Below are positions 5,114 through 64,000 of a stretch of 64,000 nt of DNA, piece after piece. The notes beneath the pieces are model-generated. The model saw only the letters and a list, made by a program, of their open reading frames with translations. It searched no databases and was not told the DNA's origin. The number at the start of each line of letters is the position of its first letter. Within the stretch, counting starts at the first letter, position 1. The position numbers and the translations under genes were made by a program. The DNA is taken from positions 1-64,000 of the IMG/VR virus record IMGVR_UViG_3300003973_000001. One strand, written 5' to 3'. The stretch comes from a virus (Duplodnaviria; Heunggongvirae; Uroviricota; Caudoviricetes).

Positions 5114-5281
5114 ATGAGTAGCAAAAAGAGAGTACTCAATCCAGTAGAAATTAAAAAAGATGTAGATTACATTCCACTAGGAAGAGCATTCGATTTCTGG
5201 AACAACGAGGGAGACGATATTTATGACGAAGTCTATGGGGAAGACAGTGAATCAGGGCGAGGTATGGATAGCAAACGTTAA
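5114..5281 (+). CDS. small acidic ORF (55 aa), antitoxin candidate
   Basis: TAAGGAGG RBS at 5098-5105, ATG at 5114. Overlaps the MazF-like gene in another frame. Acidic C-terminus (DDIYDEVYGEDSESG). Confidence 0.3.
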   Translation: MSSKKRVLNPVEIKKDVDYIPLGRAFDFWNNEGDDIYDEVYGEDSESGRGMDSKR

Positions 5282-6241: not shown

Positions 6242-6595
6242 ATGTCCGATATTGCTCATGTCACCGCAAAAAGAGTTAAAATGTTAAGATTAAAGAAAGG
6301 ATTGACTCAAAAGAGTCTTGGGGAATTGGTTGGGGTATCTGAAGCATTTATATCCATGATAGAATCTAGGTCATCTACTAACAAGAGACCATCTGGGAAA
6401 ACTATATCTCTTATAGCAGAAGCCTTAAACGTATCAACTGATTACTTATTAGGATTATCTAATACAGAAGATTTATTACCTTACTCTGATACAAGAAGAG
6501 AATTTGAAGCAATCATTGAAAAGGTCGAGCAGTTAGATGAGGATAAGCGTGTGATGGTCATAAAGATGATTCAATCTATGGTCAAAACATTATAA
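6242..6595 (+). CDS. XRE-family helix-turn-helix transcriptional regulator (CI/Cro-like)
   Basis: HTH block LTQKSLGELVGVSEAFISMIE. Sigma-A-like promoter upstream (TTGACC-17-TAAGAT and a TATAAT at 6216). Confidence 0.8.
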   Translation: MSDIAHVTAKRVKMLRLKKGLTQKSLGELVGVSEAFISMIESRSSTNKRPSGKTISLIAEALNVSTDYLLGLSNTEDLLPYSDTRREFEAIIEKVEQLDEDKRVMVIKMIQSMVKTL

Positions 6596-7040: not shown

Positions 7041-7071
7041 TGACATATATATATGGATGAAGGAGGATACT

Positions 7072-48660: not shown

Positions 48661-48682
48661 CAACATAATATTTAGTTGTCAA

Positions 48683-48753
48683 CAGGGGTTGTAGGAATCG
48701 AACCCACACTGGAGGTTTTGGAGACCTCTGTTCTACCGTTAAACTAAACCCCT
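48683..48753 (-). tRNA. tRNA-Trp (anticodon CCA)
   Basis: Hand-folded cloverleaf. Acceptor AGGGGTT/AACCCCT, anticodon loop CTCCAAA, T-loop GGTTCGATTCC. CCA not encoded. Confidence 0.75.
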
Positions 48754-48757
48754 AAGA

Positions 48758-48834
48758 TGGCATCCCATACAGGATTCGAACCTGCGAATGCTCGATAGAA
48801 AGTCGAGTGTGTTAGCCAATTTCACCAATGGGAC
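48758..48834 (-). tRNA. tRNA-Glu (anticodon TTC), CCA encoded
   Basis: Cloverleaf with anticodon stem CTCGA/TCGAG and loop CTTTCTA. Position 37 is U, which is unusual. Confidence 0.6.
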
Positions 48835-48965
48835 ATAAAGCACAAGGGTTGTTTACGTTTTTTGTTTTGGACACCCAAGAAACATAAAACTTTCTATAAT
48901 TAGTGACGAATCAAGGCATTGCCTTTGCGTTTTTTTGAATAGAAAGAAACGTATTAAGTCCATAA

Positions 48966-49039
48966 TGCCGACTGTAGGAATCGAACCCACGACCTGTTGC
49001 TTACAAGGCAACCGCTCTAACCTGCTGAGCTAAGTCGGC
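48966..49039 (-). tRNA. tRNA-Thr (anticodon TGT)
   Basis: Acceptor GCCGACT/AGTCGGC. Anticodon stem-loop GTTGC CTTGTAA GCAAC. Confidence 0.75.
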
Positions 49040-49094
49040 AAAACTGAGGACTAGCCTCAGAAATCATAGTAAGGAGGGCTTACAAATGAATAAA

Positions 49095-49166
49095 AGGGAC
49101 ATGAGGGAATCGAACCCTCGTCATCTGGTTGGAAGCCAGAGATAATAGCCTCTATACGAATGCCCC
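49095..49166 (-). tRNA. tRNA-Gly (anticodon TCC)
   Basis: Anticodon stem-loop TCTGG CTTCCAA CCAGA. T-loop GGTTCGATTCC. Confidence 0.7.
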
Positions 49167-49167
49167 A

Positions 49168-49244
49168 TGGAGGAGAGAGTGAGATTCAAACTCACGAATA
49201 ATAGGGTTGCAACCTATCGCGTTAAGCCACTTCGCCATCTCTCC
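49168..49244 (-). tRNA. tRNA-Cys (anticodon GCA), CCA encoded
   Basis: Acceptor GGAGAGA/TCTCTCC. Anticodon stem-loop ATAGG TTGCAAC CCTAT. Confidence 0.7.
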
Positions 49245-49247
49245 ATA

Positions 49248-49334
49248 TGGTGGGAAAGGTAGGATTCGAACCTACGAAACTTGTAAGGTAACAGATTTAC
49301 AGTCTGCCTGCTTTAACCCCTTGCATACTCGCCC
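49248..49334 (-). tRNA. tRNA-Tyr (anticodon GTA), long variable arm, CCA encoded
   Basis: Anticodon loop CTGTAAA. 87 nt, class II. Confidence 0.7.
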
Positions 49335-49342
49335 AAATAAAA

Positions 49343-49372
49343 TAGCGCCCATATTTCAGAGCGCTGTTATGT
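49343..49372 (-). terminator. hairpin terminator after 49374..49637, immediately upstream of tRNA-Tyr
   Basis: AGCGC-(12 nt)-GCGCT followed by ATTTTATTT. Confidence 0.45.
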
Positions 49373-49373
49373 T

Positions 49374-49637
49374 TTAATCTAATTCTACAAATTTATTAAT
49401 CTTGGCTTTAAATCGAGCATTTTGCTCTTTGCCTGCTTTTGCACTATTTACAGAAGATTGAAGTTTATCAATTTCGGCTTGCTTCTTGGCGATTTCGCCT
49501 TGGGCATCCTTAATAATAACGTCAAATTCAGCATCTGATTTATCTACTGATGCAATCGCATCTGCAAAAACCGTTTGTGCATTTTTAAAAGTATTTTCTG
49601 CTTTCGCAATCTTTTGTTCATGATTCATCTTTAGCAT
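49374..49637 (-). CDS. hypothetical coiled-coil protein embedded in the tRNA island
   Basis: ORF with a downstream hairpin terminator (49343-49372). Confidence 0.5.
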   Translation of the reverse strand: MLKMNHEQKIAKAENTFKNAQTVFADAIASVDKSDAEFDVIIKDAQGEIAKKQAEIDKLQSSVNSAKAGKEQNARFKAKINKFVELD

Positions 49638-49660
49638 AACTCTCTCATTCTCCCTTGTTT

Positions 49661-49735
49661 GCTAATTTAATGGTACAGGTGGCAGGATTTGAACCTGCGT
49701 GACCTCCGCCCCAAACGGAGTGACTGACCTCTAGC
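49661..49735 (-). tRNA. tRNA-Pro (anticodon TGG), CCA encoded
   Basis: Anticodon stem-loop CTCCG TTTGGGG CGGAG. Acceptor has two G-U pairs. Confidence 0.6.
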
Positions 49736-49851
49736 CTACACCCATATAATAAAAGCTACCGTTATTTTAAGCTTCTATAGTCCTCTTAATAAGAGTCCAG
49801 AAGTGTGCTTTCATGAGAACCGTAGCGAAACTCAGTGTGTGTGAAAAATAT

Positions 49852-49938
49852 AAGTAAGGAAAGGAGAATACAGGATTCGAACCTGTGGGAGCATTCAGTC
49901 TCCACTTCTTTAGCAAAGAAGCACAATAAGCCACTCTG
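49852..49938 (-). tRNA. tRNA-Ser (anticodon GCT), class II
   Basis: Acceptor GGAGAAT/ATTCTCC. Anticodon stem-loop CTTCT TTGCTAA AGAAG. Long variable arm. Confidence 0.7.
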
Positions 49939-50017
49939 ACAATTCTCCACGTTGGTACTCGTTTTATTCGGAACACGAGTATACATTCCACTCATCGATG
50001 ACAATGCTAGGTGAGCA

Positions 50018-50091
50018 ATCGCATAAGCTTCGGAGGAAGGGGTCGAACCTCCACGTTCTTGGGTCAAAGCCAAGTGACTTTACCAATTTGT
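50018..50091 (-). tRNA. tRNA-Gln (anticodon TTG)
   Basis: Acceptor TTCGGAG/CTCCGAA. Anticodon stem-loop CTTGG CTTTGAC CCAAG. Confidence 0.65.
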
Positions 50092-50097
50092 CTACTC

Positions 50098-50187
50098 CGA
50101 AATAATGTGGCGGAGAGTGAGGGACTTGAACCCCCATCGGCTTTCACACCTACGCTAGTTTTCAAGACTAGTCTCTTACCAATTAGA
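50098..50187 (-). tRNA. tRNA-Ser (anticodon TGA), class II, CCA encoded
   Basis: Acceptor GGAGAGT/ACTCTCC. Anticodon stem-loop CTAGT CTTGAAA ACTAG. Confidence 0.7.
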
Positions 50188-50192
50188 GTAAC

Positions 50193-50267
50193 TCTCCACA
50201 TTTGGCGAGGATAACGAGATTCGAACTCGTGCTACATGGTAGACAGCCATGTGTGTTGACCACTACA
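50193..50267 (-). tRNA. tRNA-Asp (anticodon GTC), CCA encoded
   Basis: Acceptor GGGGATA/TATCCTC. Anticodon stem-loop CATGG CTGTCTA CCATG (U37 again). Confidence 0.65.
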
Positions 50268-50374
50268 CTATATCCCCAAAGCTGTTCTAGCCACCACAGC
50301 TAGAACAGGAGGTAGGAGGTTTTAAAATGAACCAAGATTTAGGTGTTTATAGATTGGATTTAACCAATGCCTAA

Positions 50375-50455
50375 ACATATTAAGAGCCGAGTGCAGGAAT
50401 CGAACCTGCGACCAAAAGTCTGTTACTGAGCGCTCCTTATCGCTTTACCACTAAG
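50375..50455 (-). pseudogene. tRNA-like element (81 nt) lacking a canonical anticodon arm
   Basis: Perfect acceptor GCCGAGT/ACTCGGC, D-arm GCTT/AAGC and T-arm GCAGG-TTCGATT-CCTGC. The 31 nt between them contain a GAGCGCTC palindrome and no 5-7-5 anticodon hairpin. Confidence 0.4.
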
Positions 50456-50521
50456 CTAACTCGGCATAATGTGGAGCAGGAAGTGAGGGACGACCTCATA
50501 GACAATCGTTAATTGCAACCT

Positions 50522-50618
50522 GCATATGGAGTTCTGTAGGTGGGAGTCGAACCCACATGACAAATACTTGACCCTTTCTTTCCCATTTGGGATTACTCGA
50601 ACCTTTCAATATCGCTGA
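50522..50618 (-). ncRNA. oversized tRNA-like element (about 97-100 nt)
   Basis: Acceptor-type terminal pairing GTTCTGT(G)/(C)ACAGAAC and perfect T-arm GTGGG-TTCGACT-CCCAC (the selC-type T-loop). The internal region is too long for a standard tRNA and I could not fold it by eye. Confidence 0.35.
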
Positions 50619-50624
50619 CCTTCA

Positions 50625-50701
50625 CAGAACATAATGGCGTGTCTAGATGGACTTGAACCAACGACCCTCCGCTTAACAGGCGGATGCTCTAACCAACTGA
50701 G
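50625..50701 (-). tRNA. tRNA-Asn (anticodon GTT), CCA encoded
   Basis: D-arm GCTCAGTTGGTTAGAGC. Anticodon stem-loop TCCGC CTGTTAA GCGGA. Confidence 0.7.
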
Positions 50702-50921
50702 CTACAGACACAAATTTGAGGATAGTACCGTTCCTATCCTCAATAACATATATAGTAGGAGGAAAATACATGTCGAGAAAAACAAGCAGGTTGTAACTGG
50801 ATTTGCACCAGTCATCATCCATCTAGGACAACCATGAAAAGAAGCCACGCCAATCAGCATGACTCCTTGGGTATGTTTTGGGGAGTAGCTATCGCATTTC
50901 CCCAGTTATGTTTGTTTTAAA

Positions 50922-51191
50922 TTAGAATTTACGTAATGATTTTGCTAATTTAGCAGATGCTTTACGGTGAGCAGGAACAGTGATTGCTTCGCCAGTTTGT
51001 GGATTACGACCAGTGCCTTCAGCAACTTCTTTTGATACGAATGAAGCTAAACCTTTAAGTTCTACATCTTCTCCGCGAGTTACAGCGCCAACAATTACTT
51101 CTTTAAAAGCATCGAAATGTGCCTTCGCGTCTTTCTTAGTTCCACCTGTAATTTCTGCCATTGCGTTTACTACTTCTGTTGTTTTCATCAT
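50922..51191 (-). CDS. HU/IHF-family histone-like DNA-binding protein (SPO1 TF1-like)
   Basis: MMKTTEVVNAMAEITGGTKKDAKAHFDAFKEVI...GRNPQTGEAITVPA matches the HU fold signature (GRNPQTGE). Start set at ATG 51189-91 after an AAAGGGAGAT RBS. Confidence 0.8.
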   Translation of the reverse strand: MMKTTEVVNAMAEITGGTKKDAKAHFDAFKEVIVGAVTRGEDVELKGLASFVSKEVAEGTGRNPQTGEAITVPAHRKASAKLAKSLRKF

Positions 51192-51275
51192 AATTTGATA
51201 TCTCCCTTTCTCTCTCATTCCATTATGAGATTTAATAAAATATTTGTTTTATTAGTTTTGTAATAATTTTGTTTG

Positions 51276-51525: not shown

Positions 51526-52584
51526 TTATTTATTTTTGATGGCGATTTTATAAAGCTCTTTAACGTAGAATTCTGCTGACTTTTTAGCGATTCGTGTAAT
51601 CGTCTCTGAAACAGTATTCTTCTTGATTCCCAGTAATTCCTCTAGTTCTTCTTGTGCATATCCCTGTCTGAATAAGTCAACAATACTTTGCTCACGAACA
51701 GTCAGAACCATTCTATCTAGCATTCTATTGTAGTCATATATAATGATTCCTAATCCATCTTCATCCATCATATCTTCTCTATTAAGCATTCTGAGAAGCT
51801 CTTTGTTATTTACAATATCAGCGAAATCAATAACATCTAACTTGTTTGCCACACCCTCATCCTTAAGTAGATTCTTAAATTCGATAGGACGCTTGATAGC
51901 TTTCTTGATAGCAATCTGATTATCTTTCGCCTCGCGAATCCAACGAGTTACATAGCCTTTGACGTTTTTGCGAATCTTTAGGAGCTTCGCACGAGCCTCT
52001 TCTTCCATTATAATAGGAAGAGATGCGTCAATTCGATTTTCAATCATCTTCACAAACGAGTCGTCTCCTGCCTTTTCGACTAAGTCTTGCAGTCTGCCAA
52101 TCTCTACTATTTCTCTAATATCCTTAGAAAGTATACTCATACCCTTGACTAGCTTCTGATTTTTATCTTCATTAGAATAGAACATATCGAATACTTCTAC
52201 TTCTGAATTGCCATCTCCACTTTCAAATGCTGAAGCTACAACGTTCTCAGACTCTTTATATTGCTTGAACTCTCTCTCACTCTTCCAAAATCGGTACTCT
52301 ACCTTTCTGTTAGTGTCGATATCTTTTGCATTAAGAAGATATGTACCTAGCATCTCTAACGTTCGGCATACAGCATCCTGCTCAGCCATCCAACCTTGTT
52401 GCGTTGGGCTTACATCGTAATATTCACCAAAGTATGCAGAGAAGAATTCATGTACATTCCCTTCTCCATCACCAATCACTTCATTTATTACCTCTAATCT
52501 ATCATGAAACTTCTCAACTGAATAATCCTGCTGTTGGAAATCCACCAATTTTTTACCTGCAATTGAACTACTGAAGTACTTCAC
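51526..52584 (-). CDS. phage-encoded sigma-70-family sigma factor
   Basis: C-terminal region-4 HTH (QSIVDLFRQGYAQEELEELLGIKKNTVSETITRIAKK). 352 aa. Confidence 0.6.
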   Translation of the reverse strand: MKYFSSSIAGKKLVDFQQQDYSVEKFHDRLEVINEVIGDGEGNVHEFFSAYFGEYYDVSPTQQGWMAEQDAVCRTLEMLGTYLLNAKDIDTNRKVEYRFWKSEREFKQYKESENVVASAFESGDGNSEVEVFDMFYSNEDKNQKLVKGMSILSKDIREIVEIGRLQDLVEKAGDDSFVKMIENRIDASLPIIMEEEARAKLLKIRKNVKGYVTRWIREAKDNQIAIKKAIKRPIEFKNLLKDEGVANKLDVIDFADIVNNKELLRMLNREDMMDEDGLGIIIYDYNRMLDRMVLTVREQSIVDLFRQGYAQEELEELLGIKKNTVSETITRIAKKSAEFYVKELYKIAIKNK

Positions 52585-54649: not shown

Positions 54650-54740
54650 GAAAGCGCCACTGCGCGCGACCACCCACTTATCTCTCTCTTCTTAATATGG
54701 TTCTTTTCTGCTTAAATGGTTCTCTTTTATTAGACCCCCA
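54650..54740. repeat. GC-rich segment (GCGCCACTGCGCGCGACCACCCAC...TTAGACCCCCA) duplicated at 54948-55016
   Basis: About 80-bp imperfect direct repeat preceding each iteron array. GC-rich, unlike the flanking AT-rich DNA. Confidence 0.5.
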
Positions 54741-54862
54741 GATTTACACCAATAGGGGGTGTGTATTTCCGTATACCTGTCGGAGATTTACACCCCCTAT
54801 TGGTGTAAAAATCCGTATACCCTCGGAGATATACACTAGCAGGGGGTGTAAATCTCCGTATA
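54741..54862. repeat. iteron array 1: at least 3 copies of a ~22-bp unit TATACGGAGATTTACACCCCCT (some as inverted pairs)
   Basis: Direct and inverted copies of GGTGTAAATCTCCGTAT / TACACCCCCTATTGGTGTA. Confidence 0.6.
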
Positions 54863-54903
54863 CTTTAACTCATGGATAAATTTTAACAGAGAATAAGAAA
54901 TAC

Positions 54904-54922
54904 TGCAATACTTTTGTTTAAA
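54904..54922 (-). promoter_or_regulatory. 19-bp motif class A heading the first iteron unit
   Basis: ctgcaatacttttgtttaa. Confidence 0.55.
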
Positions 54923-55016
54923 GGAATACGTTTCAGTAGTGGGAAAAGAGCGCCACCGCGCGACCCCACTACTATCTCTCTCTGCTTCGTCTGGTTCTCT
55001 TATTATTAGACCCCCA

Positions 55017-55094
55017 CATTTACACCCCCTAGTGGTGTAAATCTCCGTATGGTATGCGGAAATACGCACCCCTAGAGGGTGTAAATCTCCGTAT
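55017..55094. repeat. iteron array 2: 2-3 copies of the same unit
   Basis: atttacaccccctagtggtgtaaatctccgtat ... agagggtgtaaatctccgtat. Confidence 0.6.
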
Positions 55095-55132
55095 CAGTGA
55101 GATGTATAGAAATTTGGGTGAGTGATTTTTGC

Positions 55133-55165: not shown

Positions 55166-55410
55166 GAACCAGAAATTTATTGTCAGATTGAAGGGGATTC
55201 TGCTACAATGAATACAACAAACAAATCTTGAAAAAGCAAAAACGCCCTATCCTTTGTAAGTTTGGCGACCTGCAAGGATAAAGCGTTCGAAAGATAAAAC
55301 ATAGAATTCAGTTTTTTGTTACCTCAATAATATCATACATATAATATGTATGCAAAGGAATTCTATGATTTTTTCTTCCTGCTTTTTCTATAAAAATGGG
55401 GGAATTGAAT

Positions 55411-56445
55411 ATGGCTAGACCAGATGGTTATGATGTAGAAGGTTACATCCACTTTATTAAGAAGAGAGTAGATGGGACTCATTGGGTTGGCAAAGGAGAG
55501 AGTGCTAGAGAGATGCCTAATAAAGAAGCGTATGAAGTGCCTTTTGAATCTATCGAAAACTTAGACCTTAATAGGATTGGTAATGAGATTTCTTATCTTA
55601 ATAGCAATGTCTGGAATGTAGAAAGATATATGGCTTATTTCTGGAAGCAAATAATGGATGCTGATTCTATTTTCGTTTGGAAGCATCTGTGGGAATATGC
55701 AAATGAAGCAGAGAATATTGATATGTGTTATCCGAAAATGTCTGAATTGATGCAGAGATGCGGATTATCGAGACCCACCCTAATTGACAAGATAAAGAAA
55801 CTGGAAGAGAACAACTTCCTTATTCAAATACATAGATTAAACAAGAAGTCCGATAATAAAAAAGAAGACAGCCCATTATTCAAATTAAGAAGAACTATAC
55901 CTCTGCTGTCGAAAGAACAGGTTGAAAAGCTTACTCCTTTTATGAAGAAAAAGCATGACGATTACATGAATAAGTTTGCTAGTAAATCTAGTCTAGAATG
56001 GTTCTCTGCGAGCGGTAAAGAAACTGTTGATAATCTTATAGAGACTTCTGGAGACAGAATCGTATCTAGCAAGGCAAGACAGGAAATCAAGAATCTGCTA
56101 AAGAACGAGGAAGAAGAAGGTTATATAATTGTGAACCTCCCTCCTCATATGCAGGACACATTAAAAGATTCTAATTCACTACATGAGGCTCTTATGAAGA
56201 ACGGATTTAGTAAACCGTCAGTAGAATTGCTATTTGGAGACGTAATGTCTACATATGATAGTGAGACATCTACTGCACATATTATTACCAGAAAAAGTTC
56301 TCAGAAAGAGTATTATGAGAAAAATATGGAAGATAAGTATAAAGACATGCTATTCTCATCACTAATTGAAATGTACGATTCTGTTGGAGATATAAAGTAC
56401 TTCACTACAGAACAATATATAATTACAATTCTGAAGGGCAAATAA
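55411..56445 (+). CDS. winged-helix DNA-binding protein flanked by repeat arrays (replication initiator / origin-binding candidate)
   Basis: HTH-like segment PKMSELMQRCGLSRPTLIDKIKKLEENNFL. Iterons upstream, DnaA-box/palindrome array downstream. Start moved to ATG 55411 (GGGGGA RBS). Confidence 0.55.
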   Translation: MARPDGYDVEGYIHFIKKRVDGTHWVGKGESAREMPNKEAYEVPFESIENLDLNRIGNEISYLNSNVWNVERYMAYFWKQIMDADSIFVWKHLWEYANEAENIDMCYPKMSELMQRCGLSRPTLIDKIKKLEENNFLIQIHRLNKKSDNKKEDSPLFKLRRTIPLLSKEQVEKLTPFMKKKHDDYMNKFASKSSLEWFSASGKETVDNLIETSGDRIVSSKARQEIKNLLKNEEEEGYIIVNLPPHMQDTLKDSNSLHEALMKNGFSKPSVELLFGDVMSTYDSETSTAHIITRKSSQKEYYEKNMEDKYKDMLFSSLIEMYDSVGDIKYFTTEQYIITILKGK

Positions 56446-56493: not shown

Positions 56494-56720
56494 TTATCCG
56501 CCTAGTGTAAAGAAATTTTATACTATGATTTTCGCCTAGTATAAAGAAATTTTATACTATACCATAAAGAAATTTTATACTATAGTGTAAAGAAATTTTA
56601 CACTATAGAAACACTCACTTATCCCCAGATTCTGTGGATAACCTAGTATAAAGTTTTTTTATACTATAAAACCCTAGTGTAAAATTTCTTTATAGTCCCC
56701 CTAAAGAATCTTTACACCCT
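56494..56720. repeat. array of at least 6 palindromic 24-bp repeats (TAGTRTAAAGAAATTTTATACTAT) flanked by three DnaA-box-like 9-mers
   Basis: TTATCCGCC at 56494, TTATCCCCA at 56619, perfect TTATCCACA (complement) at 56634-56642. Each repeat is itself an inverted repeat TAGTATAAA/TTTATACTA. Confidence 0.6.
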
Positions 56721-57885: not shown

Positions 57886-59850
57886 ATGAAATTAACAACA
57901 GAACAACAATTGGCAGTAGATACTATTGACGGAAACGTTTGTACAATCGCGAGTGCAGGCTCTGGAAAAACTAGCGCCTTCACTACTCGTATTGCGAACA
58001 TGGTAAACAATCACTATATCAATCCTACATGTATTCTAGGAATCACGTTTACGAAGAAGGCATCCGAGGAAATGCAGAAGCGACTTGCCAAGCTTATTGG
58101 TAAGGAAACAGCAAAGAAGGTCGTGCTTAGTACATTCCACAGCATCGCTTACCGATTACTAAAGGTTTTAGATTCAGAGTTTGATAAATTACAAATTGCC
58201 CCAGATTGGTGGAAGATGTCGCGCCTTAACGACTTGTGTAAGCCTCGCGATGAGCGAAACCATTTAGGTATGAATCTAGGAATCAAGGCAGGCGAACTTG
58301 CCCAGTTTATTTCTTACCAGAAAGCGAATATGGTGAAGCCGACTGACAATCTCATTATCAATGAGCAAGTCGAATTTGTAGACGGAGTGTCAGAACCACT
58401 TCTCAGAGAGGCATACGCCACGTATGAGCGACTTAAAACAGAATCTAGACAAGTAGACTTCGATGACATGTTATTGCGATTCTACGAGAAACTGAGAGAC
58501 GACAGCGTATTCCGTTCTCGCATTGCTAAACAGTATCAGTACATCATGATAGACGAATACCAAGATACTTCAACTATCGTGCTTGAAATTGTTAAGCTTA
58601 TCAACTCTCGAAACGTATTCGTAGTTGGCGATTTCCGCCAATCCATCTATGCATTCATCAATGCGAATGTTGAGAATATCCTTAACTTCAAAGATGAATT
58701 TGAGAATGTTAAGCTAATTGAATTGAACAAAAATTTCCGCTCAACGCAGAATATTGTTCACCTATCAAACAAAATTATTGAAAACAGTTCGATTGAAAAA
58801 TACAAGCAATTCAAGCCATCCGAGAGTGTTGGCGAAGTTGGAGATAAAGTTAAGTTTTCTCTATACCAAGACGAAGGAAAACAGATTCTTGGAATCGCTA
58901 ATCAGATTCAAGATTTAGTAGATGGCGGTATGCCATATAAGGAGATTGCTATTCTAGTTCGCGCAAATGCGGATACAGCAATCATTGAGGAAGTACTGGC
59001 AGATAAGGATATTCCTTACGATGTATCCAAATCCCTATCCTTCTTCGACAGAAAGGAAATCTTAGATTTACTAAGCTACGGAAGACTTGTAGTAGATAGC
59101 GAAGACGACAGCAGTTTCCGCAGAATCATCAATTCACCGAATCGATATTTAGGAAAGCAGTTTGTCGAGGAACTGGAGCGATTTGCAGGTTCGCACGATA
59201 TGAACTTAATGCAGGCGCTACGCGTAACTCCTCAGAATGGTGAGTGGAAATTCAAGCGAGGAATCGATAACTTCACTAAGATTATTAGCGATTTGCACTA
59301 TCAATCTAATTCTAGTACGAATGCAGGGCGATTCCTTCGCAATGTAATTAAAGCGACTCGCTACATTGAGTTTGTGAATGAGACGACTCCTAACGCATCT
59401 TCTATTGATGAGAAATTGGAATCTATCGAAAAGCTTTGCACTATGGCTTCTAAATTCCCTAATATCAAAGCGTTCTTGGCTCACGTTTCTACCATTAAAG
59501 ACAAACAAGCGAAGTCTAAAGGTAAAGATGCGGTGCAGGTAATGACTAGCCATGCATCTAAAGGATTGGAATTTGACGCGGTATTCGTTCCGAATGCTAA
59601 TGAAGGGCTTATTCCTCACAAGATGAATCCAGACGAGGAAGAAGAGCGAAGACTGTTTTACGTATCATGTTCTCGCCCTCGTAAGCACCTATATATCAGT
59701 TGGTTCTTTTACGATGCCGAAGCCATGCTTCAAAATGAGAGTATCTTCGTACAGGAATTGCTTGGAGAAGATACGATTCTAGAAATGAAGAAAGACCTCT
59801 TCCGAGGCAAATCGGAGACCCATGTGTGGTATCCTTCAAAAACTAGCTAA
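57886..59850 (+). CDS. UvrD/PcrA-like superfamily-1 DNA helicase
   Basis: Walker A AGSGKT. Motif II DEYQD. 654 aa. Confidence 0.8.
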   Translation: MKLTTEQQLAVDTIDGNVCTIASAGSGKTSAFTTRIANMVNNHYINPTCILGITFTKKASEEMQKRLAKLIGKETAKKVVLSTFHSIAYRLLKVLDSEFDKLQIAPDWWKMSRLNDLCKPRDERNHLGMNLGIKAGELAQFISYQKANMVKPTDNLIINEQVEFVDGVSEPLLREAYATYERLKTESRQVDFDDMLLRFYEKLRDDSVFRSRIAKQYQYIMIDEYQDTSTIVLEIVKLINSRNVFVVGDFRQSIYAFINANVENILNFKDEFENVKLIELNKNFRSTQNIVHLSNKIIENSSIEKYKQFKPSESVGEVGDKVKFSLYQDEGKQILGIANQIQDLVDGGMPYKEIAILVRANADTAIIEEVLADKDIPYDVSKSLSFFDRKEILDLLSYGRLVVDSEDDSSFRRIINSPNRYLGKQFVEELERFAGSHDMNLMQALRVTPQNGEWKFKRGIDNFTKIISDLHYQSNSSTNAGRFLRNVIKATRYIEFVNETTPNASSIDEKLESIEKLCTMASKFPNIKAFLAHVSTIKDKQAKSKGKDAVQVMTSHASKGLEFDAVFVPNANEGLIPHKMNPDEEEERRLFYVSCSRPRKHLYISWFFYDAEAMLQNESIFVQELLGEDTILEMKKDLFRGKSETHVWYPSKTS

Positions 59851-59866
59851 AACAAAAGTATTGCAC
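59847..59866 (+). promoter_or_regulatory. 19-bp motif class A overlapping the helicase stop
   Basis: ctaaaacaaaagtattgcac. Confidence 0.55.
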
Positions 59867-59883
59867 AAGAAAAGGAGAATCGC

Positions 59884-60130
59884 TATGAAAATTATTCCAG
59901 TGTTAGCGCCAAGCTACCAAGAGTTCAGATATTTTGTTCAAGACAATCAATTGAAGTTTCAGCAATTTGCTTATATCACAACGGAAGATAACCTTAGAGG
60001 ATATGGCGGTATCGTCATAGTTCTACCTAATTGGAAGAGAAATGATAAGTATGACGTAAACTTCAGACGTAGGCTGATTGAAATGGAAGTATTAAAACAT
60101 ATCTTTTTATCGAGACATGTAGAAATCTAG
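59884..60130 (+). CDS. hypothetical protein
   Basis: AAGGAGA RBS then ATG 59884. The track start at 59822 lies inside the upstream gene/motif. Confidence 0.5.
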
Positions 60131-60196
60131 GGAGGTGTGGGCAATTCGCCCTCCCCTGTCCTTCAATACTTTTGCTCTATAAATCTCTATTTTTTG

Positions 60197-60247
60197 GACG
60201 AAAGTATTGCGAGGCATTTTATACAATTAAACTAAACTATTGCGAGG
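60197..60247 (+). promoter_or_regulatory. two degenerate tandem motif copies (GACGAAAGTATTGCGAGG and AAACTAAACTATTGCGAGG)
   Basis: Upstream of 60257..60520. Confidence 0.35.
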
Positions 60248-60256
60248 ACTGATAGA

Positions 60257-60520
60257 ATGGAAACGACAAAAAATATAATGATGACAGCTATATTAGTAGA
60301 TGGTAGAAATGTAGTAATACGCCCATCCCCTACTAGCAATGAAGAAATGCTATGGAGATTTACGAATGGATTTGACGATGAAGAGAATGCAGGCATTGCA
60401 TTTATCTATCAATGGAACAAAGCTAAAATCATGGGCAAGGCTAAGGTATTTAAGAATACTACAACCTGCTACATTGAAATTAAAGGCAACAATATCGTAC
60501 TTAACTTGCTAGAGGACTAG
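60257..60520 (+). CDS. hypothetical protein
   Basis: ORF. Confidence 0.5.
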   Translation: METTKNIMMTAILVDGRNVVIRPSPTSNEEMLWRFTNGFDDEENAGIAFIYQWNKAKIMGKAKVFKNTTTCYIEIKGNNIVLNLLED

Positions 60521-60711
60521 AAATAGTCTTCTTTTTTATTTTGTACCACTTTTAGACCAATAATTGGTACATAGGGTGGTCAATCTATTATTTTTTCTAT
60601 ATTTTTTTCATCTATCAAACTCTTCAGTACCAAGGCTTGGCACTGAGGGTGGTCTAATTTCTGTCTTTCGGGTATTGCAAAGTAGAGAAATGCGTGATTT
60701 AATATAGACAA
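60521..60711. repeat. repeat sites upstream of the ParM-like gene: two palindromes each followed by AGGGTGGTC(A/T)AAT
   Basis: GACCAATAATTGGTACATAGGGTGGTCAATC and ACCAAGGCTTGGCACTGAGGGTGGTCTAATTTC. Confidence 0.45.
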
Positions 60712-60738
60712 ATGGTAAATGAAGGAGAGATTGGCAAA

Positions 60739-61878
60739 ATGGTCAAGAAAACTGCGTTAAAAGTTACTATGAAATACGATAGAGTTATTGGAATCGACTT
60801 AGGTAACGGTCTTGTAAAGATTAGAAGTGTTTACAAAAGCGGTGAATTATATGAACTGACTCTTCCAAGCGCATTCGGAAAACTGATTGATGTAGGGAAC
60901 AGTGTTGGGGGAGAAGAGCTAGATTTAGATACATATAGAATTAATGGCATCGATTATGTATGGGGAGAAGATATCACTAGACTTCGAGACAAGATGAAGC
61001 CTTGCTACGGTCATCAAGGAAGATATGAATCTGAAGCATATAAGATTATGGCTCAAATCGCTATGTCTAGAGTTGTAAAGGATTTAGGAATCGATGCAAC
61101 GGAAAAGGTTTTAGTAGTAACTGGAGTTCCTTCTATTGAAACTGATACAGAGTGCGAGACTGATATAGCGAATGCTTTCTATGGAGAAAGCTCTGGATTC
61201 TTCGAAACAGTAGTAAATGGACAAGAGTACAGCTACAGATTAGCTCACGTACAGGTTACAGCACAGGCTCTGGCAACTGTAATTGGAAGATATATAGATG
61301 AGGTTGGAAGAGTATTAAATTCGGATTATGAGAAGATTAAGGTAGCTGTAGTTGATATCGGTGCAGGCACAACGGATTTAGATGCTGTATTTGAGCTTCG
61401 TAGACAATCGAACTACCATAGTATCCAACGAGGATTCAGAGATGTTTATGAGGATATCAGAACGTATATTAGAAAGTATCATCCTTCTCATGTTGTTACG
61501 GACTACGATATCTTAGAAATCATCGAAGAAGTAGGGGATATGAGGAAGAGGCAGGAACTTGAAGCTTCTATTAGCAAGAAGAAGAAAGAGGATATTCGAT
61601 ATGAATACACTCCTTCAAAGAGAAGCGCACCAGTAGATTTCACTGATGTATTCCTTAATTCATTATATGAGCTTGCAATGGATATTCAGCAGGCTATACT
61701 TGATAAGTGGAAGAATACACTTGAATTTGATGAAATATTAATCGTTGGAGGAAGCGCAGAACACTTCTCTGACATGATGTTAAAGATTGTTAAGGATGCA
61801 ATTATCCCAGAGAACAATGGAGATAGTAACGTAGAGGGTTATTACAGATTGGGCGTAAGTATCGCACTGGCAGGATAA
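60739..61878 (+). CDS. ParM/StbA-like actin-fold partition ATPase
   Basis: N-terminal phosphate-1 motif VIGIDLGNGLVKI. DIGAGTTD phosphate-2 motif. GAAGGAGAG RBS then ATG 60739. Confidence 0.7.
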   Translation: MVKKTALKVTMKYDRVIGIDLGNGLVKIRSVYKSGELYELTLPSAFGKLIDVGNSVGGEELDLDTYRINGIDYVWGEDITRLRDKMKPCYGHQGRYESEAYKIMAQIAMSRVVKDLGIDATEKVLVVTGVPSIETDTECETDIANAFYGESSGFFETVVNGQEYSYRLAHVQVTAQALATVIGRYIDEVGRVLNSDYEKIKVAVVDIGAGTTDLDAVFELRRQSNYHSIQRGFRDVYEDIRTYIRKYHPSHVVTDYDILEIIEEVGDMRKRQELEASISKKKKEDIRYEYTPSKRSAPVDFTDVFLNSLYELAMDIQQAILDKWKNTLEFDEILIVGGSAEHFSDMMLKIVKDAIIPENNGDSNVEGYYRLGVSIALAG

Positions 61879-61890
61879 GGAGTGTAAAGA

Positions 61891-62178
61891 ATGTCTATAT
61901 ATAAGCTACCATTAGATGATGATGTTGATGTGGATATACAGAAGTGGATGGACAAGATACCTAGAAACAAGAAGGCTGAAGTTATACGACACGCTATAAG
62001 GCTGTATAAGAGCCAACTGAAAGAAGGGGAATTCTTCTATTATCCTACTGGAGAAGGCGTGTATAAGGTCAATAATACGCAAGAGGAAGTTATTGAAGAG
62101 GAAGAGATAGAAGAAGAGAGACCGATGGCTAATCCTGCATTCTTAGCTAGTATGCACAAGGCGAAGGGTGATAAATAA
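61891..62178 (+). CDS. ParR-like ribbon-helix-helix adaptor (putative)
   Basis: 95 aa. KKAEVIRHAIRLY RHH-like N-terminus, acidic C-terminus. Immediately downstream of the ParM-like gene. Confidence 0.45.
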   Translation: MSIYKLPLDDDVDVDIQKWMDKIPRNKKAEVIRHAIRLYKSQLKEGEFFYYPTGEGVYKVNNTQEEVIEEEEIEEERPMANPAFLASMHKAKGDK

Positions 62179-62384
62179 TGAGAAGAGTCTTTTATGAAAT
62201 GAACGTTATGACCAAGGGTGAGACGTTCACTAAGAAATTCTCTATAGAATACGATAGGGAAGAGTACGATAGTAATTCTGAGAATTTAGATGCTGAGATT
62301 ATTTCATATAAATGGAGCGAACTAGTTAAGGAGTACGGTATAGATGCATTTCTAGTTAGCTATTCAATAGAAAGAGAACTTTAA
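62178..62384 (+). CDS. hypothetical protein
   Basis: ORF. ATG overlaps the upstream stop. Terminator hairpin at 62388-62420. Confidence 0.45.
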   Translation: MRRVFYEMNVMTKGETFTKKFSIEYDREEYDSNSENLDAEIISYKWSELVKEYGIDAFLVSYSIEREL

Positions 62385-62387
62385 GTC

Positions 62388-62420
62388 GAGTAGAGATACT
62401 CGGCTTTTGTTTATGTTTGG
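62388..62420 (+). terminator. rho-independent terminator
   Basis: CGAGTA-gaga-TACTCG followed by GCTTTTGTTTATGTTT. Confidence 0.55.
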
Positions 62421-62478
62421 ATATATTTGGGTAGTATAAATAATGCGATTTATATAATGAAAAAGGGGAGGGATTTAC

Positions 62479-62739
62479 TTGCTTAGCGATAAGGAGATAG
62501 TGATTGCAAACTTTGCATTTAATGATATTCGCAAGAATTGTTTTGAGGAAGATAGTCCTATGACTGCATACGCAGGCGAGAAATTGATAAAGGACTTGTG
62601 TAATTCGTTATTTAAAAGAGGTGCTACAGTAGAAGAGATAGAGATTATTATGAAAAATAATGGATTCGACATGATAATAAATGTTAAAGATGTAGATGAG
62701 TTAACAATGAAAAGGTTGAAGAAGACAGAGGAGATGTAG
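62479..62739 (+). CDS. hypothetical protein
   Basis: TTG start after GGGGAGGGA RBS. Confidence 0.45.
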   Translation: MLSDKEIVIANFAFNDIRKNCFEEDSPMTAYAGEKLIKDLCNSLFKRGATVEEIEIIMKNNGFDMIINVKDVDELTMKRLKKTEEM

Positions 62740-62741
62740 GT

Positions 62742-62990
62742 ATGAATTTTCCAGTTGGTCTTACAAGTGGGGCTAAATATCTATTAGAACTTTACACTGA
62801 CAGAAATAGAGATAAGATGGATATCTCTCTAGCTGAGTTGGTGGGTAAGTATTATGATGGAGAATCTGCGATGGATTACTCTGCGGTGATGCTTGGAAAT
62901 CATGTCTTGGTAGGGTATGAGAACAAAGAAGGCAAGTTTATGGCTGAAACTCTTGATGAAATTGTAATGAGAATGAAGGAAACTGGCTAA
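62742..62990 (+). CDS. hypothetical protein
   Basis: ORF. Confidence 0.45.
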   Translation: MNFPVGLTSGAKYLLELYTDRNRDKMDISLAELVGKYYDGESAMDYSAVMLGNHVLVGYENKEGKFMAETLDEIVMRMKETG

Positions 62991-62999
62991 AATATAGCA

Positions 63000-64000
63000 A
63001 ACCGAGACGATTTTGTGGTAAAATTGTAGCAAATAATGCTGTGATAAGCCCAGATTCGTCTTATTTTTGTTATTATGAGTCGAAACAGGGTTAAAAAGGT
63101 GTAAAAGCGTGACAAAAGTGCTAAATAACGCTTAATAAGGCTTATTTATGGCTTATTATAGGCGTATCGGTGAATATATGATGAAATATCGTTAAAATAG
63201 CTTTCGAACGACCTTAACGTACAGAGGTAGATGGTAGAAGGGGTTAGTTGTATTTAAGTACCTATTTTATGTCGTAAATAACCCCTCTGGATGGTTAAAT
63301 AGGGTAGGGGAAGTAAGGATGTTGACGAGACGCTTTACGAGAGGGATAAAATAGCAAAAAAGTCAATGGTTGGTAAGATTAGGGTAGGATTAGTGGAGAT
63401 TCGTATCGGAATCGGTAAAATATTTGTGGTGTGTGGATGAGGGTACATAGGTCGGTTGGCTAGGAAAAGTCCCCCTAATATGTGGTAAATAGCCCCCCTA
63501 CGCCTGTCATCCTATTTCCTATTAGTGCGACACGTACACGCCACACATGCAGGCAGGCGCACACATACGCGCACACGTACACGCGCGAGCGCATGGAAGG
63601 AAATGGAAAAGTTGAGAGACTCCTTACAATGGGAATCATTTACTATACATTGTTTATGCATACGCTGAATAGCGCGCAGGAGGAGAGGGAAAATTCCACC
63701 GACCCAATAGGGATAGGCTTCTCGGTAAGGAATGCATGCGGTGTGGAACATGGAGCTACCATACATATTTATTCATTCTTACCACTCACCACGACACCAT
63801 ACAACCTCAATTAATCCCACGCTTTCCAACACCACAAACCCACTAATACCAATACTTCAACCACTATGACAACATACCATACAACTAACATCAATCACCA
63901 CTGTATAAACACTGCATATACAACGTTATACATTCCAACAATTACCAACAAGACTATATCAACTATACAACCTACTTGTATACATGGCATCATCGAATAC
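63000..64000. other. ORF-free region with extreme, polarity-switching strand composition and a (CA/CG)n core
   Basis: 63000-63500 is C-poor and G/T/A-rich on the plus strand. 63520-63600 has CACGTACACGC/CACACATACGCGCACACG microsatellite-like words. 63780-64000 is almost G-free and C/A-rich. No credible ORF. Confidence 0.5.

What the first reader, a model, noticed from the sequence alone, without database searches (positions are those of the whole stretch)
60521..62178. Actin-like ParM/ParR partition cassette with upstream repeat sites: plasmid-prophage signature
The 60739..61878 product has the ParM/actin-fold phosphate-1 (VIGIDLGNGLVKI) and phosphate-2 (DIGAGTTD) motifs. The next gene, 61891..62178, encodes a 95-aa protein with a ribbon-helix-helix-like basic N-terminus and acidic tail, like ParR. 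Upstream, 60521-60711 carries two palindromes (ACCAATAATTGGT, CCAAGGCTTGG), each followed by AGGGTGGTC(A/T)AAT, and is a candidate parC centromere. A type II partition system implies stable low-copy extrachromosomal maintenance. Combined with the origin-like region, XRE repressor, antirepressor and tyrosine recombinase, the phage may lysogenise as a plasmid.
Basis: partly seen in the sequence, partly recalled or inferred. Interest (0 to 1): 0.75.

Follow-up and report, generated by a model that had tools for sequence, protein, structure and literature searches.

The report
ParM-type partition cassette of a phage-plasmid
This stretch is a self-contained plasmid-segregation module (an actin-like motor, a small DNA-binding adaptor and two paired binding sites) carried by a roughly 130-kb Bacillus phage whose relatives live as circular plasmids; it is a sound annotation, but of a kind already known in Bacillus plasmid prophages.

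Summary
60739-61878 encodes an actin-fold ATPase of the ParM family. Its best solved relative, by sequence and by fold, is pSK41 ParM. 61891-62178 encodes a ribbon-helix-helix (RHH) protein whose family profile best matches pSK41 ParR. Upstream lie two copies of a composite site, CCAA-N3-TTGG-N8-GGGTGGTC, exactly 73 bp apart. The site occurs nowhere else in the window.

New evidence:
- The sites and their 73-bp spacing are conserved in four diverged lineages, while the spacer sequence is not.
- In a complete 137.6-kb relative the site occurs only twice, both times upstream of the ParM gene.
- In a B. cereus relative that is 88-94% identical on both flanks, exactly 60.52-62.18 kb (sites, motor, adaptor) is replaced by a diverged cassette. 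This is the behaviour expected of an exchangeable partition module.
- Relatives carrying both this motor and the phage portal are closed circular plasmids. The nearest relative is a 129,129-bp contig assembled in two different rotations.

The plasmid-prophage reading is therefore supported by comparison, not shown for this strain. ParM-like plus RHH cassettes are already described in Bacillus plasmid prophages (B83, IEBH) and in large C. difficile plasmid phages. This is a new member of a known kind. Only the two-cluster centromere layout is a modest variant.

The parts
60511..60542 (+). Intrinsic terminator of the upstream gene. It marks the left edge of the transcription unit and lies about where similarity to the B. 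cereus relative L032 breaks down.
   Evidence: Terminator scan: 9-bp stem, 4-nt loop, T-run. Identity to L032 drops from about 90% to background from about 60520 onward.
60543..60581 (+). Site cluster 1. The composite site ACCAATAATTGGTACATAGGGTGGTC lies at 60556-60581, with one extra inverted half-site (GTACCAC, 60543-60549). The half-site cores are ACCA at 60545, ACCA at 60556, TGGT at 60565 and TGGT at 60577.
   Evidence: It is 63-85% identical to the matching site in three diverged lineages, against 24-37% for the spacer.
60582..60627 (.). AT-rich spacer with T-tracts. Its length is conserved but its sequence is not.
   Evidence: Start-to-start spacing is 73 bp in the window, L004, L001, L003, L006 and L029. 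Spacer identity to the other lineages is 24-37%.
60628..60658 (+). Site cluster 2. The composite site ACCAAGGCTTGGCACTGAGGGTGGTC lies at 60629-60654 and has three half-sites in the same register as cluster 1.
   Evidence: In B. mycoides the palindrome is perfect, GTGCCAAGGCTTGGCAC.
60675..60703 (+). Predicted promoter of the operon: -35 TTGCAA (60675-60680), a 17-nt spacer ending in TGA, and -10 TTTAAT (60698-60703).
   Evidence: I read this from the sequence. TTGCA and ATGATTTAATA are invariant across the lineages aligned. The consensus scanner did not report it because the -10 lacks A at position 2.
60739..61878 (+). Actin-like ParM-family ATPase, 379 aa: the filament-forming motor.
   Evidence: The actin-fold motifs are invariant in 24 homologues: D20-G22-N23-G24, T128-G129-P131, Q176, D206-G208-G210-T211-D213 and G337.
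61891..62178 (+). ParR-like adaptor, 95 aa. It has an N-terminal RHH (strand about residues 3-8, helices 14-21 and 25-42), an acidic linker, and a conserved C-terminal peptide with a short predicted helix at 82-88.
   Evidence: The family profile hits pSK41 ParR 2q2k (E=1.1e-3) and CopG 6iya. The identity of 2q2k was checked in PMC3074162. AF2 model. Family alignments.
62178..62384 (+). Third ORF, 68 aa and acidic. It is translationally coupled to the adaptor gene (TAATG overlap). It is co-transcribed but lies outside the exchangeable specificity cassette. Function unknown.
   Evidence: It is conserved at protein level in L001, L003, L004, L015, L018, L029 and L032 but absent in L002, L006, L007 and L009. 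It stays 93.6% identical in L015 and L032, where the ALP and adaptor are swapped. It is a small family with 12 representatives.
62383..62416 (+). Intrinsic terminator that closes the operon.
   Evidence: Terminator scan: 10-bp stem, 4-nt loop, T-run.

Best explanation
This is a type II (ParMRC-like) partition cassette of a roughly 130-kb Bacillus cereus-group siphophage-like phage-plasmid.

Proposed mechanism:
1. Dimers of the 95-aa RHH adaptor bind the KTGGYM half-sites of two composite sites (60543-60581 and 60628-60658).
2. The sites sit 73 bp apart, about seven helical turns, so they face the same side of the DNA across an AT-rich spacer.
3. Together they form a small bipartite nucleoprotein complex that acts as the centromere and probably also as the operator of the promoter just downstream.
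4. The adaptor's conserved C-terminal peptide recruits the ends of ATP-dependent filaments of the actin-like protein.
5. Filament growth between two such complexes pushes sister prophage plasmids apart before cell division.

Shown here:
- The folds and family membership of both proteins.
- The reality, uniqueness, conservation and fixed spacing of the sites.
- The cassette behaving as one exchangeable module.
- The plasmid state of relatives.

Inferred, not shown:
- That the adaptor binds these sites.
- That its tail binds the motor.
- That filaments form.
- That this particular element is episomal.
For: Motor:
- Pfam ALP_N 1.5e-13, Alp7A_like_C 1.9e-7 and MreB-like_C.
- PHROG 691 'partition protein' 1.1e-40.
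- NCBIfam ParM 5.6e-56 across the full length.
- PDB pSK41 ParM 3js6, 4e-14 by sequence.
- AF2 model with pLDDT 88.1 and pTM 0.87. Its top Foldseek hits are 3js6 (1.7e-23), Alp12, Bt ParM, Ta0583 and R1 ParM.
- The catalytic and nucleotide-binding motifs are invariant in 24 homologues.

Adaptor:
- It lies immediately downstream of the motor gene.
- Its family profile hits pSK41 ParR (2q2k, 1.1e-3) and CopG proteins.
- The RHH helices are modelled at pLDDT 88-91.
- The family shares a conserved core, Y-K-L-P-L-D...D-K-D-I..W...P-R-x-K-K-A-E-x-V-R-H-A-I-R-x-Y, and a conserved C-terminal (K/R)-(R/K)-P-x peptide.

Sites:
- Only two matches in 64 kb, with 0 expected.
- Exactly 73-bp spacing in the window, L004, L001, L003, L006 and L029, which have ALP identity of 60-94%.
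- Footprint: the sites are 59-85% identical across lineages, the spacer 24-37%.
- More distant relatives keep two copies of a CCAA/TTGG-type composite site about 180-210 nt upstream of the ATG, at 85, 95 or 97 bp.
- In the complete 137,592-bp B. wiedmannii plasmid the site occurs twice only, both times upstream of the ALP gene.
- The window lacks the divergent MerR gene present in relatives yet keeps the sites.

Module behaviour:
- L015 and L032 are 88% identical to the window up to about 60520 and 93.6% identical from exactly 62178.
- Between those points they carry a diverged sites-ALP-adaptor cassette with 97-bp spacing.

Plasmid context:
- Iterons, a Rep-like gene and a UvrD-type helicase lie next to the cassette.
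- Closed circular plasmids NZ_CP032366, NZ_CP069392, NZ_CP097785 and NZ_CP097781 carry both the ALP (51-61%) and the portal (about 65%).
- NZ_CP032366 is phage-like along its whole length, and no other partition gene is annotated.
- The B. mycoides 129,129-bp contig, about 92% identical to the window, is assembled in two rotations.

Literature:
- ParM-like plus RHH adaptor plus upstream iterons are described in Bacillus plasmid prophages (PMC6669507, PMC8026635, PMC11526630).
- parM is described in large plasmid siphophages of C. difficile, whose portal is the nearest phage homologue (PMC5786514).
Against: - No experiment links the adaptor to the sites or to the motor.
- The layout differs from characterised parC loci. 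There are 3-4 half-sites per cluster in two clusters, all upstream of the promoter. pSK41 has a contiguous array, and R1 has two iteron blocks flanking the promoter (PMC5016525). A very small segrosome may or may not be able to capture filament ends.
- Foldseek with the adaptor model found nothing. The monomer model lacks the beta-ribbon, and overall pLDDT is 69.7.
- The profile hit to ParR is marginal (E=1.1e-3).
- The episomal state of this exact element is not shown, and the window also encodes a tyrosine recombinase.
- Actin-like proteins also occur in strictly lytic Bacillus phages of the SPO1 group, so possession alone does not prove partition.
Confidence: 0.75

Rival explanations
1. The actin-like system works mainly in the lytic cycle. 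It would position or transport replicating phage DNA, as proposed for AlpC/AlpA of the Corynebacterium prophage CGP3 and for the ALPs of lytic phages, rather than segregate a prophage plasmid.
For: - ALP homologues of about 24% identity exist in lytic SPO1-like Bacillus phages.
- PMC8026635 and PMC5786514 note that phage actin-like proteins can serve intracellular transport and replication positioning.
Against: - The closest homologues (33-94% identity) are all on plasmids, or on 115-150-kb contigs that look like separate replicons.
- The cassette sits beside a plasmid-type iteron/Rep module.
- It is exchanged as a specificity cassette between near-identical backbones. That is the pattern expected under incompatibility selection acting on a maintenance function.
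Confidence: 0.12
2. The two composite sites are only an operator for autoregulation of the operon by the RHH protein. The real centromere lies elsewhere, for example in the gene-free, repeat-rich region that starts about 0.8 kb downstream of the operon.
For: - The sites lie upstream of, not around, the conserved promoter.
- There are only two clusters, few for a segrosome.
- A conserved gene-free region of about 2.4 kb with 10-bp-periodic ACCAC repeats follows the operon in relatives.
Against: - No further copy of the composite site exists in the window or anywhere in the complete 137.6-kb relative. An RHH protein with this specificity therefore has no other target.
- In known type II systems the operator and centromere are the same locus upstream of the operon (PMC5016525).
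- The downstream region is 85% conserved between the window and L015/L032 although their adaptors differ. It therefore does not co-vary with the adaptor.
Confidence: 0.1
3. The sites are bound by a different regulator, for example the divergent MerR-family protein found upstream in relatives. The small protein would then be an unrelated transcription factor.
For: Most relatives have a divergently transcribed MerR gene sharing the intergenic region.
Against: - The window and B. mycoides lack the MerR gene yet keep both sites.
- In relatives the MerR-proximal part of the intergenic region has its own separate repeats of CTGCCCTACANTATAG type at 64- or 43-bp spacing. These are absent from the window.
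- The sites are exchanged together with the ALP and adaptor.
Confidence: 0.03

Closest known systems
pSK41 ParMRC (Staphylococcus aureus), type II partition
   Same: - It is the best solved relative of both proteins: ParM 3js6 (sequence E=4e-14; Foldseek E=1.7e-23) and ParR 2q2k (profile E=1.1e-3).
- The gene order, motor then RHH adaptor, is the same.
- The centromere candidate lies upstream of the operon.
   Different: - Structural alignment to ParM shows only about 20% identity.
- The motor is about 55 residues longer, with an inserted helix and loop around residues 255-300.
- pSK41 parC is a contiguous array of tandem repeats (PMC5016525). Here there are two separate clusters 73 bp apart, each mixing inverted and direct half-sites.
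- The host replicon is a phage, not a conjugative plasmid.
ParM-like plus RHH adaptor cassettes of Bacillus plasmid prophages (vB_BtS_B83, IEBH and the B. cereus s.l. plasmid-prophage groups of Piligrimova et al.)
   Same: - It has the same three-part design in the same host group: a ParM-like gene, a small RHH protein, and repeats in the region upstream of about 165 bp.
- It is combined with a Xer-type tyrosine recombinase and an iteron/Rep module (PMC6669507, PMC8026635, PMC11526630).
   Different: - Those phages are about 50 kb, whereas this element is about 130 kb.
- The ALP has no detectable tblastn match at E<=1e-5 in any of 50,697 deposited phage records except distant SPO1-type ALPs. 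It is therefore a different ALP lineage.
- The B83 and IEBH proteins were not compared directly here.
R1 ParMRC
   Same: - The centromere is split into two blocks, as in R1 (PMC5016525).
- The adaptor has an N-terminal RHH and a conserved C-terminal tail, which in R1 inserts into a hydrophobic pocket of ParM.
- R1 ParM is a clear fold match (4a61, E=7.6e-17).
   Different: - R1 has 5+5 direct 11-bp iterons flanking the promoter.
- Here there are 4+3 half-sites, partly palindromic, and both blocks lie upstream of the conserved promoter.
Alp7A/Alp7R of Bacillus subtilis pLS20
   Same: - The host genus is the same.
- The Pfam Alp7A_like_C domain matches (1.9e-7).
- The Alp7A structure 5ec0 is a fold match (4e-15).
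   Different: - BLASTP against Alp7A finds no significant similarity (best E=0.15).
- The adaptor family is unrelated to Alp7R (hhalign probability 0.3%).
Large plasmid siphophages of C. difficile (phiCD211, phiCDIF1296T, phiCD5763)
   Same: - Genome size is about 130 kb.
- Their portal is the nearest phage homologue (about 30% identity).
[quoted passage not shown]
   Different: - They come from a different host class.
- Their ParM was not found as a homologue of this ALP at E<=1e-5.

Membership tests
Type II (ParMRC) plasmid partition system | Motor is an actin-fold NTPase of the ParM/ALP superfamily with intact nucleotide-binding motifs | tested here: met
   Pfam ALP_N 51.7 bits against a cut-off of 26.3. 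AF2 model closest to ParM structures. Phosphate-1, connect-1, catalytic Q176, phosphate-2 and adenosine motifs are invariant in 24 homologues.
Type II (ParMRC) plasmid partition system | [quoted passage not shown] | tested here: met
   The gene starts 13 nt after the ALP stop. The profile hits pSK41 ParR 2q2k (1.1e-3) and CopG (0.034). AF2 gives helices 14-21 and 25-42 at pLDDT 88-91, preceded by an extended N-terminus. Support is moderate: there is no Pfam hit and no Foldseek hit.
Type II (ParMRC) plasmid partition system | Conserved C-terminal tail of the adaptor that binds the motor | tested here: inconclusive
   A conserved C-terminal (K/R)(R/K)P-x-x-N/G... peptide is present across the family, with a short helix at 82-88 in the model. 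Binding to the ALP could not be tested.
Type II (ParMRC) plasmid partition system | [quoted passage not shown] | tested here: met
   Two composite sites with 7 half-sites lie only here in the window. The site is also unique in a complete relative, conserved with fixed spacing, and co-exchanged with the genes. The arrangement differs from the pSK41 and R1 arrays. Binding was not tested.
Type II (ParMRC) plasmid partition system | Nucleotide-dependent filament formation and stabilisation of a low-copy replicon | not testable with these tools
   This needs polymerisation assays and plasmid-loss assays.
NCBIfam PRK13917 'plasmid segregation protein ParM' (equivalog) | Score at or above the curated equivalog cut-off of 417 bits | tested here: not met
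   The score is 190.2 bits, E=5.6e-56, across the full length. This is a clear homologue but not an equivalog of that ParM subfamily.
Alp7A/Alp7R (pLS20) | Sequence relationship of the motor to Alp7A and of the adaptor to Alp7R | tested here: not met
   BLASTP against Alp7A gives a best E of 0.15. hhalign of the adaptor family against Alp7R gives probability 0.3%. Only the generic Pfam C-terminal domain is shared.
Phage-plasmid (plasmid prophage) | One replicon carries a complete virion and lysis gene set together with plasmid replication and partition functions | tested here: met
   Terminase, portal, tail and endolysin genes. Rep-like gene with iterons and a helicase. The par cassette (this report). 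The relative NZ_CP032366 shows the same content along its whole length.
Phage-plasmid (plasmid prophage) | Maintained extrachromosomally in lysogens | tested here: inconclusive
   Relatives are closed circular plasmids. The nearest relative is a 129,129-bp contig assembled in two rotations, with one contig end mapping inside the other's helicase gene. The state of this window's own element cannot be seen from 64 kb.

The most novel reading that the evidence does not exclude
The family uses a minimal bipartite centromere. Two oriented composite sites, each an inverted pair plus one phased direct half-site, are held an integral number of helical turns apart: 73 bp here, and 85, 95 or 97 bp in more distant relatives. 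The intervening AT-rich DNA loops so that only about 6-7 RHH dimers form the filament-capturing complex. This segrosome geometry would be distinct from the long iteron superhelices of pSK41 and R1. Whole sites-motor-adaptor cassettes are swapped between near-identical 130-kb phage backbones to escape partition incompatibility. The co-transcribed 68-aa protein might be an accessory factor not known in type II systems.
Probability: 0.2. Interest if true: 0.5.

Novelty: new member of a known kind. Interest (0 to 1): 0.3.

Why it matters
The cassette marks this roughly 130-kb element as a plasmid prophage. The same applies to a whole, largely unannotated family of 115-150-kb elements in Bacillus, Peribacillus and related genera. 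These are currently filed as 'plasmids' or 'hypothetical proteins'.

That matters for three reasons:
- How such elements are classified.
- How they spread accessory genes. This one carries 13 tRNA genes, a Rap phosphatase and a MazF toxin.
- Which related elements can coexist in one cell, because partition cassettes determine incompatibility.

The conserved two-site layout, and the clean cassette swap between near-identical backbones, give a compact system in which centromere geometry and partition specificity can be tested. The general principle of ParM plus an RHH adaptor plus upstream repeats in Bacillus plasmid prophages is already established.

Tried and rejected
- **Alp7A/Alp7R membership.** I fetched pLS20 and first compared the wrong gene pair (3466-4638 and 4642-4941). 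I then compared the annotated Alp7A and Alp7R. Neither shows significant similarity.
- **Megablast against deposited phages.** The cassette gave no match.
- **Exact-protein look-up of the ALP.** It is not on record.
- **Genome-contig scans.** Both yielded almost nothing useful.
- **Foldseek of the adaptor model against PDB.** No hit. The monomer model of a dimeric RHH with a disordered linker is a poor query.
- **Rfam.** Nothing at E<=1 in 60000-64000, and nothing relevant in L004. The palindromes are therefore not a known RNA element.
- **A promoter between the two sites, as in R1.** The scanner's TTGGTA-16-TATTAT at 60564-60591 is not conserved in relatives. I rejected it in favour of the conserved TTGCAA/TGATTTAAT promoter downstream of site 2.
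- **MerR as the binder of the sites.** Rejected: the window lacks the gene, and the MerR-side repeats are a different motif absent from the window.
- **Extra copies of the site elsewhere.** None in the window or in a complete relative. Partial resemblances in the downstream gene-free region of L004 (TACCAAGGCTT) are not conserved in the window, so I treated them as chance.
- **Covariation between the adaptor's beta-strand and the half-site.** Both are simply conserved (YKLP and CCAA/TTGG), so no covariation signal is available.
Full report
**What is at the coordinates**

The sequence between 60511 and 62416 is one transcription unit. It is bounded by two intrinsic terminators, at 60511-60542 and 62383-62416. 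It holds three tightly packed genes:
- 60739-61878, 379 aa, with the RBS AAGGAG at 60722-60727.
- 61891-62178, 95 aa.
- 62178-62384, 68 aa, whose ATG overlaps the preceding stop codon as TAATG.

The two palindromes lie at 60556-60568 and 60630-60640, each followed after 5 nt by AGGGTGGTC. The flank written as 'AGGGTGGTC(A/T)AAT' is one base out of register for copy 1.

**The motor**

- The 379-aa protein matches Pfam ALP_N (E=1.5e-13, above the gathering score), Alp7A_like_C and MreB-like_C.
- It matches PHROG 691 'partition protein' (1.1e-40).
- It matches NCBIfam PRK13917 'plasmid segregation protein ParM' over its full length (5.6e-56). The 190 bits fall below the equivalog cut-off of 417.
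- By sequence, the best solved relative is pSK41 ParM, 3js6 (4e-14).
- An AF2 model from 24 homologues is confident (pLDDT 88.1, pTM 0.87). Its best Foldseek matches are 3js6 (E=1.7e-23, TM 0.67/0.78), then Alp12, B. thuringiensis ParM, Ta0583, R1 ParM and Alp7A.
- The actin-fold nucleotide-binding and catalytic positions are invariant in the family alignment.
- It is not a close relative of pLS20 Alp7A (BLASTP not significant).

**The adaptor**

- The 95-aa protein has no Pfam or NCBIfam hit.
- Equivalent small genes follow the ALP gene in every relative examined. They align well over an N-terminal core, Y-K-L-P-L-D-(4)-D-K-D-I-x-x-W-L-x-x-x-P-R-x-K-K-A-E-x-V-R-H-A-I-R-x-Y.
- After the core come a variable linker (acidic in the window) and a conserved C-terminal (K/R)(R/K)P-x-x-(N/G) peptide.
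- A profile of 15 such proteins hits the pSK41 ParR-DNA complex 2q2k (E=1.1e-3) and two CopG-family RHH regulators. PMC3074162 confirms that 2q2k is pSK41 ParR.
- AF2 gives an extended N-terminus, helices 14-21 and 25-42 at pLDDT 88-91, and a short C-terminal helix at 82-88. This is the RHH monomer topology plus a candidate motor-binding peptide.
- Foldseek on this model found nothing.
- The family is unrelated to Alp7R.

Both proteins therefore point to the pSK41-type ParM/ParR pair as the nearest characterised system.

**The sites**

- The repeat finder reports one 26-nt direct repeat, at 60556-60581 and 60629-60654, with a start-to-start distance of 73 bp.
- The composite pattern, with up to three mismatches, matches only these two places in 64 kb. 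None were found in 100 shuffles.
- Read closely, each copy is ACCA-N5-TGGY-N8-TGGT: an inverted pair plus one direct half-site about one helical turn further on.
- Copy 1 has a fourth, mirrored half-site (GTACCAC, 60543-60549).
- Seven KTGGYM half-sites fall within 121 bp against 0.32 expected, the densest cluster in the window. The motif was defined after inspecting the region.

**Comparative evidence for the sites**

This is the strongest part of the case.
- Homologous ALP loci were collected from plasmids, IMG/VR and assemblies.
- Four lineages have ALPs 60-63% identical to the window's: L001 (B. wiedmannii plasmid), L003 and L029, L006, plus the 94% relative L004. All have two copies of (G)TCCAAGGCTTGG(A/T)AC-N3-AGGGTG(G/T)TC at exactly 73 bp.
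- In a five-sequence alignment the two sites are 59-85% identical to the window. The spacer between them is 24-37% identical, and the stretch from site 2 to the -35 is 20-35%.
- A TTGCAA -35 and an extended -10 (TGATTTAAT) downstream of site 2 are also conserved. This is the likely operon promoter.
- More distant relatives (48-54% ALP identity) keep two copies of a CCAA(A)/TTGG-type composite site at a similar distance from the ATG. Their spacings are 85, 95 and 97 bp. All are near whole numbers of helical turns, as is 73.
- In the complete 137,592-bp B. wiedmannii plasmid the site occurs exactly twice, both times upstream of the ALP gene.

**The cassette is an exchangeable unit**

- Two B. 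cereus-group loci, L015 and L032, are 88% identical to the window from the helicase gene up to about 60520.
- They are 93.6% identical from exactly 62178 (the start of the third ORF), and 85% identical further on.
- In between, the intergenic sites, ALP and adaptor are replaced by a diverged set: ALP 54% identical, adaptor about 40%, site spacing 97 bp.
- The break-points coincide with the coordinates of the finding.
- The sites travel with the two proteins, not with the flanking genes. Related backbones carry different partition specificities. This is the pattern expected for plasmid incompatibility determinants (my inference).
- The swap also places the 68-aa third ORF outside the specificity unit.

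**Is the element a plasmid prophage?**

- The window encodes a large terminase, portal, tail proteins and an endolysin.
- It also carries 13 tRNA genes, a Rap phosphatase and a UvrD-type helicase.
- A replication-initiator-like HTH protein (phrog_26369) is flanked by iteron arrays at 54727-55096 and 56499-56694.
- A Bro-N/ANT antirepressor, an XRE regulator and a MazF toxin are present.
- A tyrosine recombinase is embedded in the tail module.
- No deposited phage has a close ALP homologue.
- Four closed circular plasmids of 130-148 kb from B. wiedmannii and B. velezensis carry both the ALP (51-61%) and the portal (about 65%).
- NZ_CP032366 is collinear with the window and phage-like throughout. 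It has the same recombinase in the same place and no other annotated partition system.
- ALP homologues sit again and again on contigs of 116-148 kb.
- The nearest relative is B. mycoides, with ALP 94% and DNA about 92% identical over 50.8-64.0 kb. It is a 129,129-bp contig present in two assemblies in different rotations. One contig end maps inside the other's helicase gene at 99.99% identity. That indicates a circular, or circularly permuted, free replicon.
- The portal's nearest phage relatives are the large extrachromosomal C. difficile siphophages phiCD211 and phiCDIF1296T, which also carry parM (PMC5786514).
- Episomal lysogeny is thus well supported for the family but not demonstrated for this element. 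In this context the recombinase is as likely a multimer resolvase as an integrase (compare PMC8026635).

**Mechanism proposed**

- The model follows what is established for type II systems (PMC5016525).
- RHH dimers bind the half-sites of both clusters. The 73-bp phasing and AT-rich spacer let the clusters cooperate on one face of the DNA.
- The clustered C-terminal tails capture the growing ends of ALP filaments, which push sister plasmids apart. The same complex probably represses the adjacent promoter.
- The steps from 'binds' onward are inferred.
- The layout differs from the contiguous pSK41 array and from the R1 5+5 iterons flanking the promoter. That is the only element of novelty.

**Comparison with the known, and verdict**

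- ParM-like plus RHH adaptor plus upstream iterons is explicitly described for the Bacillus plasmid prophages B83 and IEBH, and for many B. cereus s.l. plasmid-prophage groups (PMC6669507, PMC8026635, PMC11526630).
- The finding is therefore a correct annotation, now well supported, of a new member of a known kind. It belongs to an as yet uncharacterised family of roughly 130-kb Bacillaceae phage-plasmids.
- Interest is modest, at 0.3.
- The main rivals are a lytic-cycle positioning role, an operator-only role for the sites, and a different binder. Each is less likely for the reasons given in its entry.

Noticed in passing
window 62991-64000 (runs off the end); L004 12016-14408: A gene-free region of about 2.4 kb begins about 0.8 kb downstream of the par operon. 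It is present at the same place in all relatives. In L004 the plus-strand GC skew is +0.4 to +0.5, followed by a GC-rich CACACACG stretch, then about 1 kb with skew -0.5 to -0.6. That last part holds 10-bp-periodic ACCACTTATT repeats next to a T-rich, AT-rich stretch. There is no Rfam match. It could be an origin, a pac region or a long non-coding RNA.
   Followed up: partly
window 62178-62384: A 68-aa acidic ORF is translationally coupled to the adaptor gene. It is conserved at protein level in about half of the relatives. It stays 93.6% identical in L015 and L032, where the ALP and adaptor are swapped. Only 12 representatives were found among 1.8 billion proteins. Function unknown.
   Followed up: partly
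window 54727-55096 and 56499-56694, flanking 55396-56445: Two iteron arrays bracket a replication-initiator-like HTH_36 gene. One has five copies of a 41-nt unit containing an internal palindrome (GGAGATTTACACC...GGTGTAAATCTCC), at 43-44 bp spacing in two clusters. The other has six copies of a 22-23-nt unit (CCTAGTGTAAAGAAATTTTATA). This is probably the plasmid-type origin.
   Followed up: partly
window 25613-26644 (-): A tyrosine recombinase (PF00589, E=1.2e-21) sits inside the tail module between ORFs of 2509 aa and 2216 aa. The placement is the same in the circular B. wiedmannii plasmid. Its role (dimer resolution, integration or tail-fibre switching) is not determined.
   Followed up: partly
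window 48682-50711 (-): An array of 13 tRNA genes: Trp, Glu, Thr, Gly, Cys, Tyr, Pro, Ser x2, Gln, Asp, Ala and Asn.
   Followed up: no
window 5223-5567, 6242-6595, 7057-8166, 50922-51218, 51526-52584: Accessory and regulatory genes: a MazF/PemK toxin, an XRE-type HTH regulator, a Rap-family (RapH_N plus TPR) phosphatase, an HU-like DNA-binding protein and a phage sigma-factor-like protein (phrog_5767).
   Followed up: no
L001 7619-7790; L003 5650-5808; L006 5643-5789; L002 and L007 upstream regions: Relatives with a divergent MerR-family gene upstream of the ALP carry a second, separate repeat set next to it (CTGCCCTACANTATAG-like, at 64- or 43-bp spacing). In the window and B. mycoides both the MerR gene and these repeats are absent. 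Two small ORFs, 59822-60130 and 60257-60520, take their place.
   Followed up: partly
L019 2155-2652: One distant relative (40% ALP identity, a 140-kb IMG/VR contig) encodes a 165-aa adaptor made of two tandem RHH modules. This is a covalent 'dimer' version of the adaptor.
   Followed up: no
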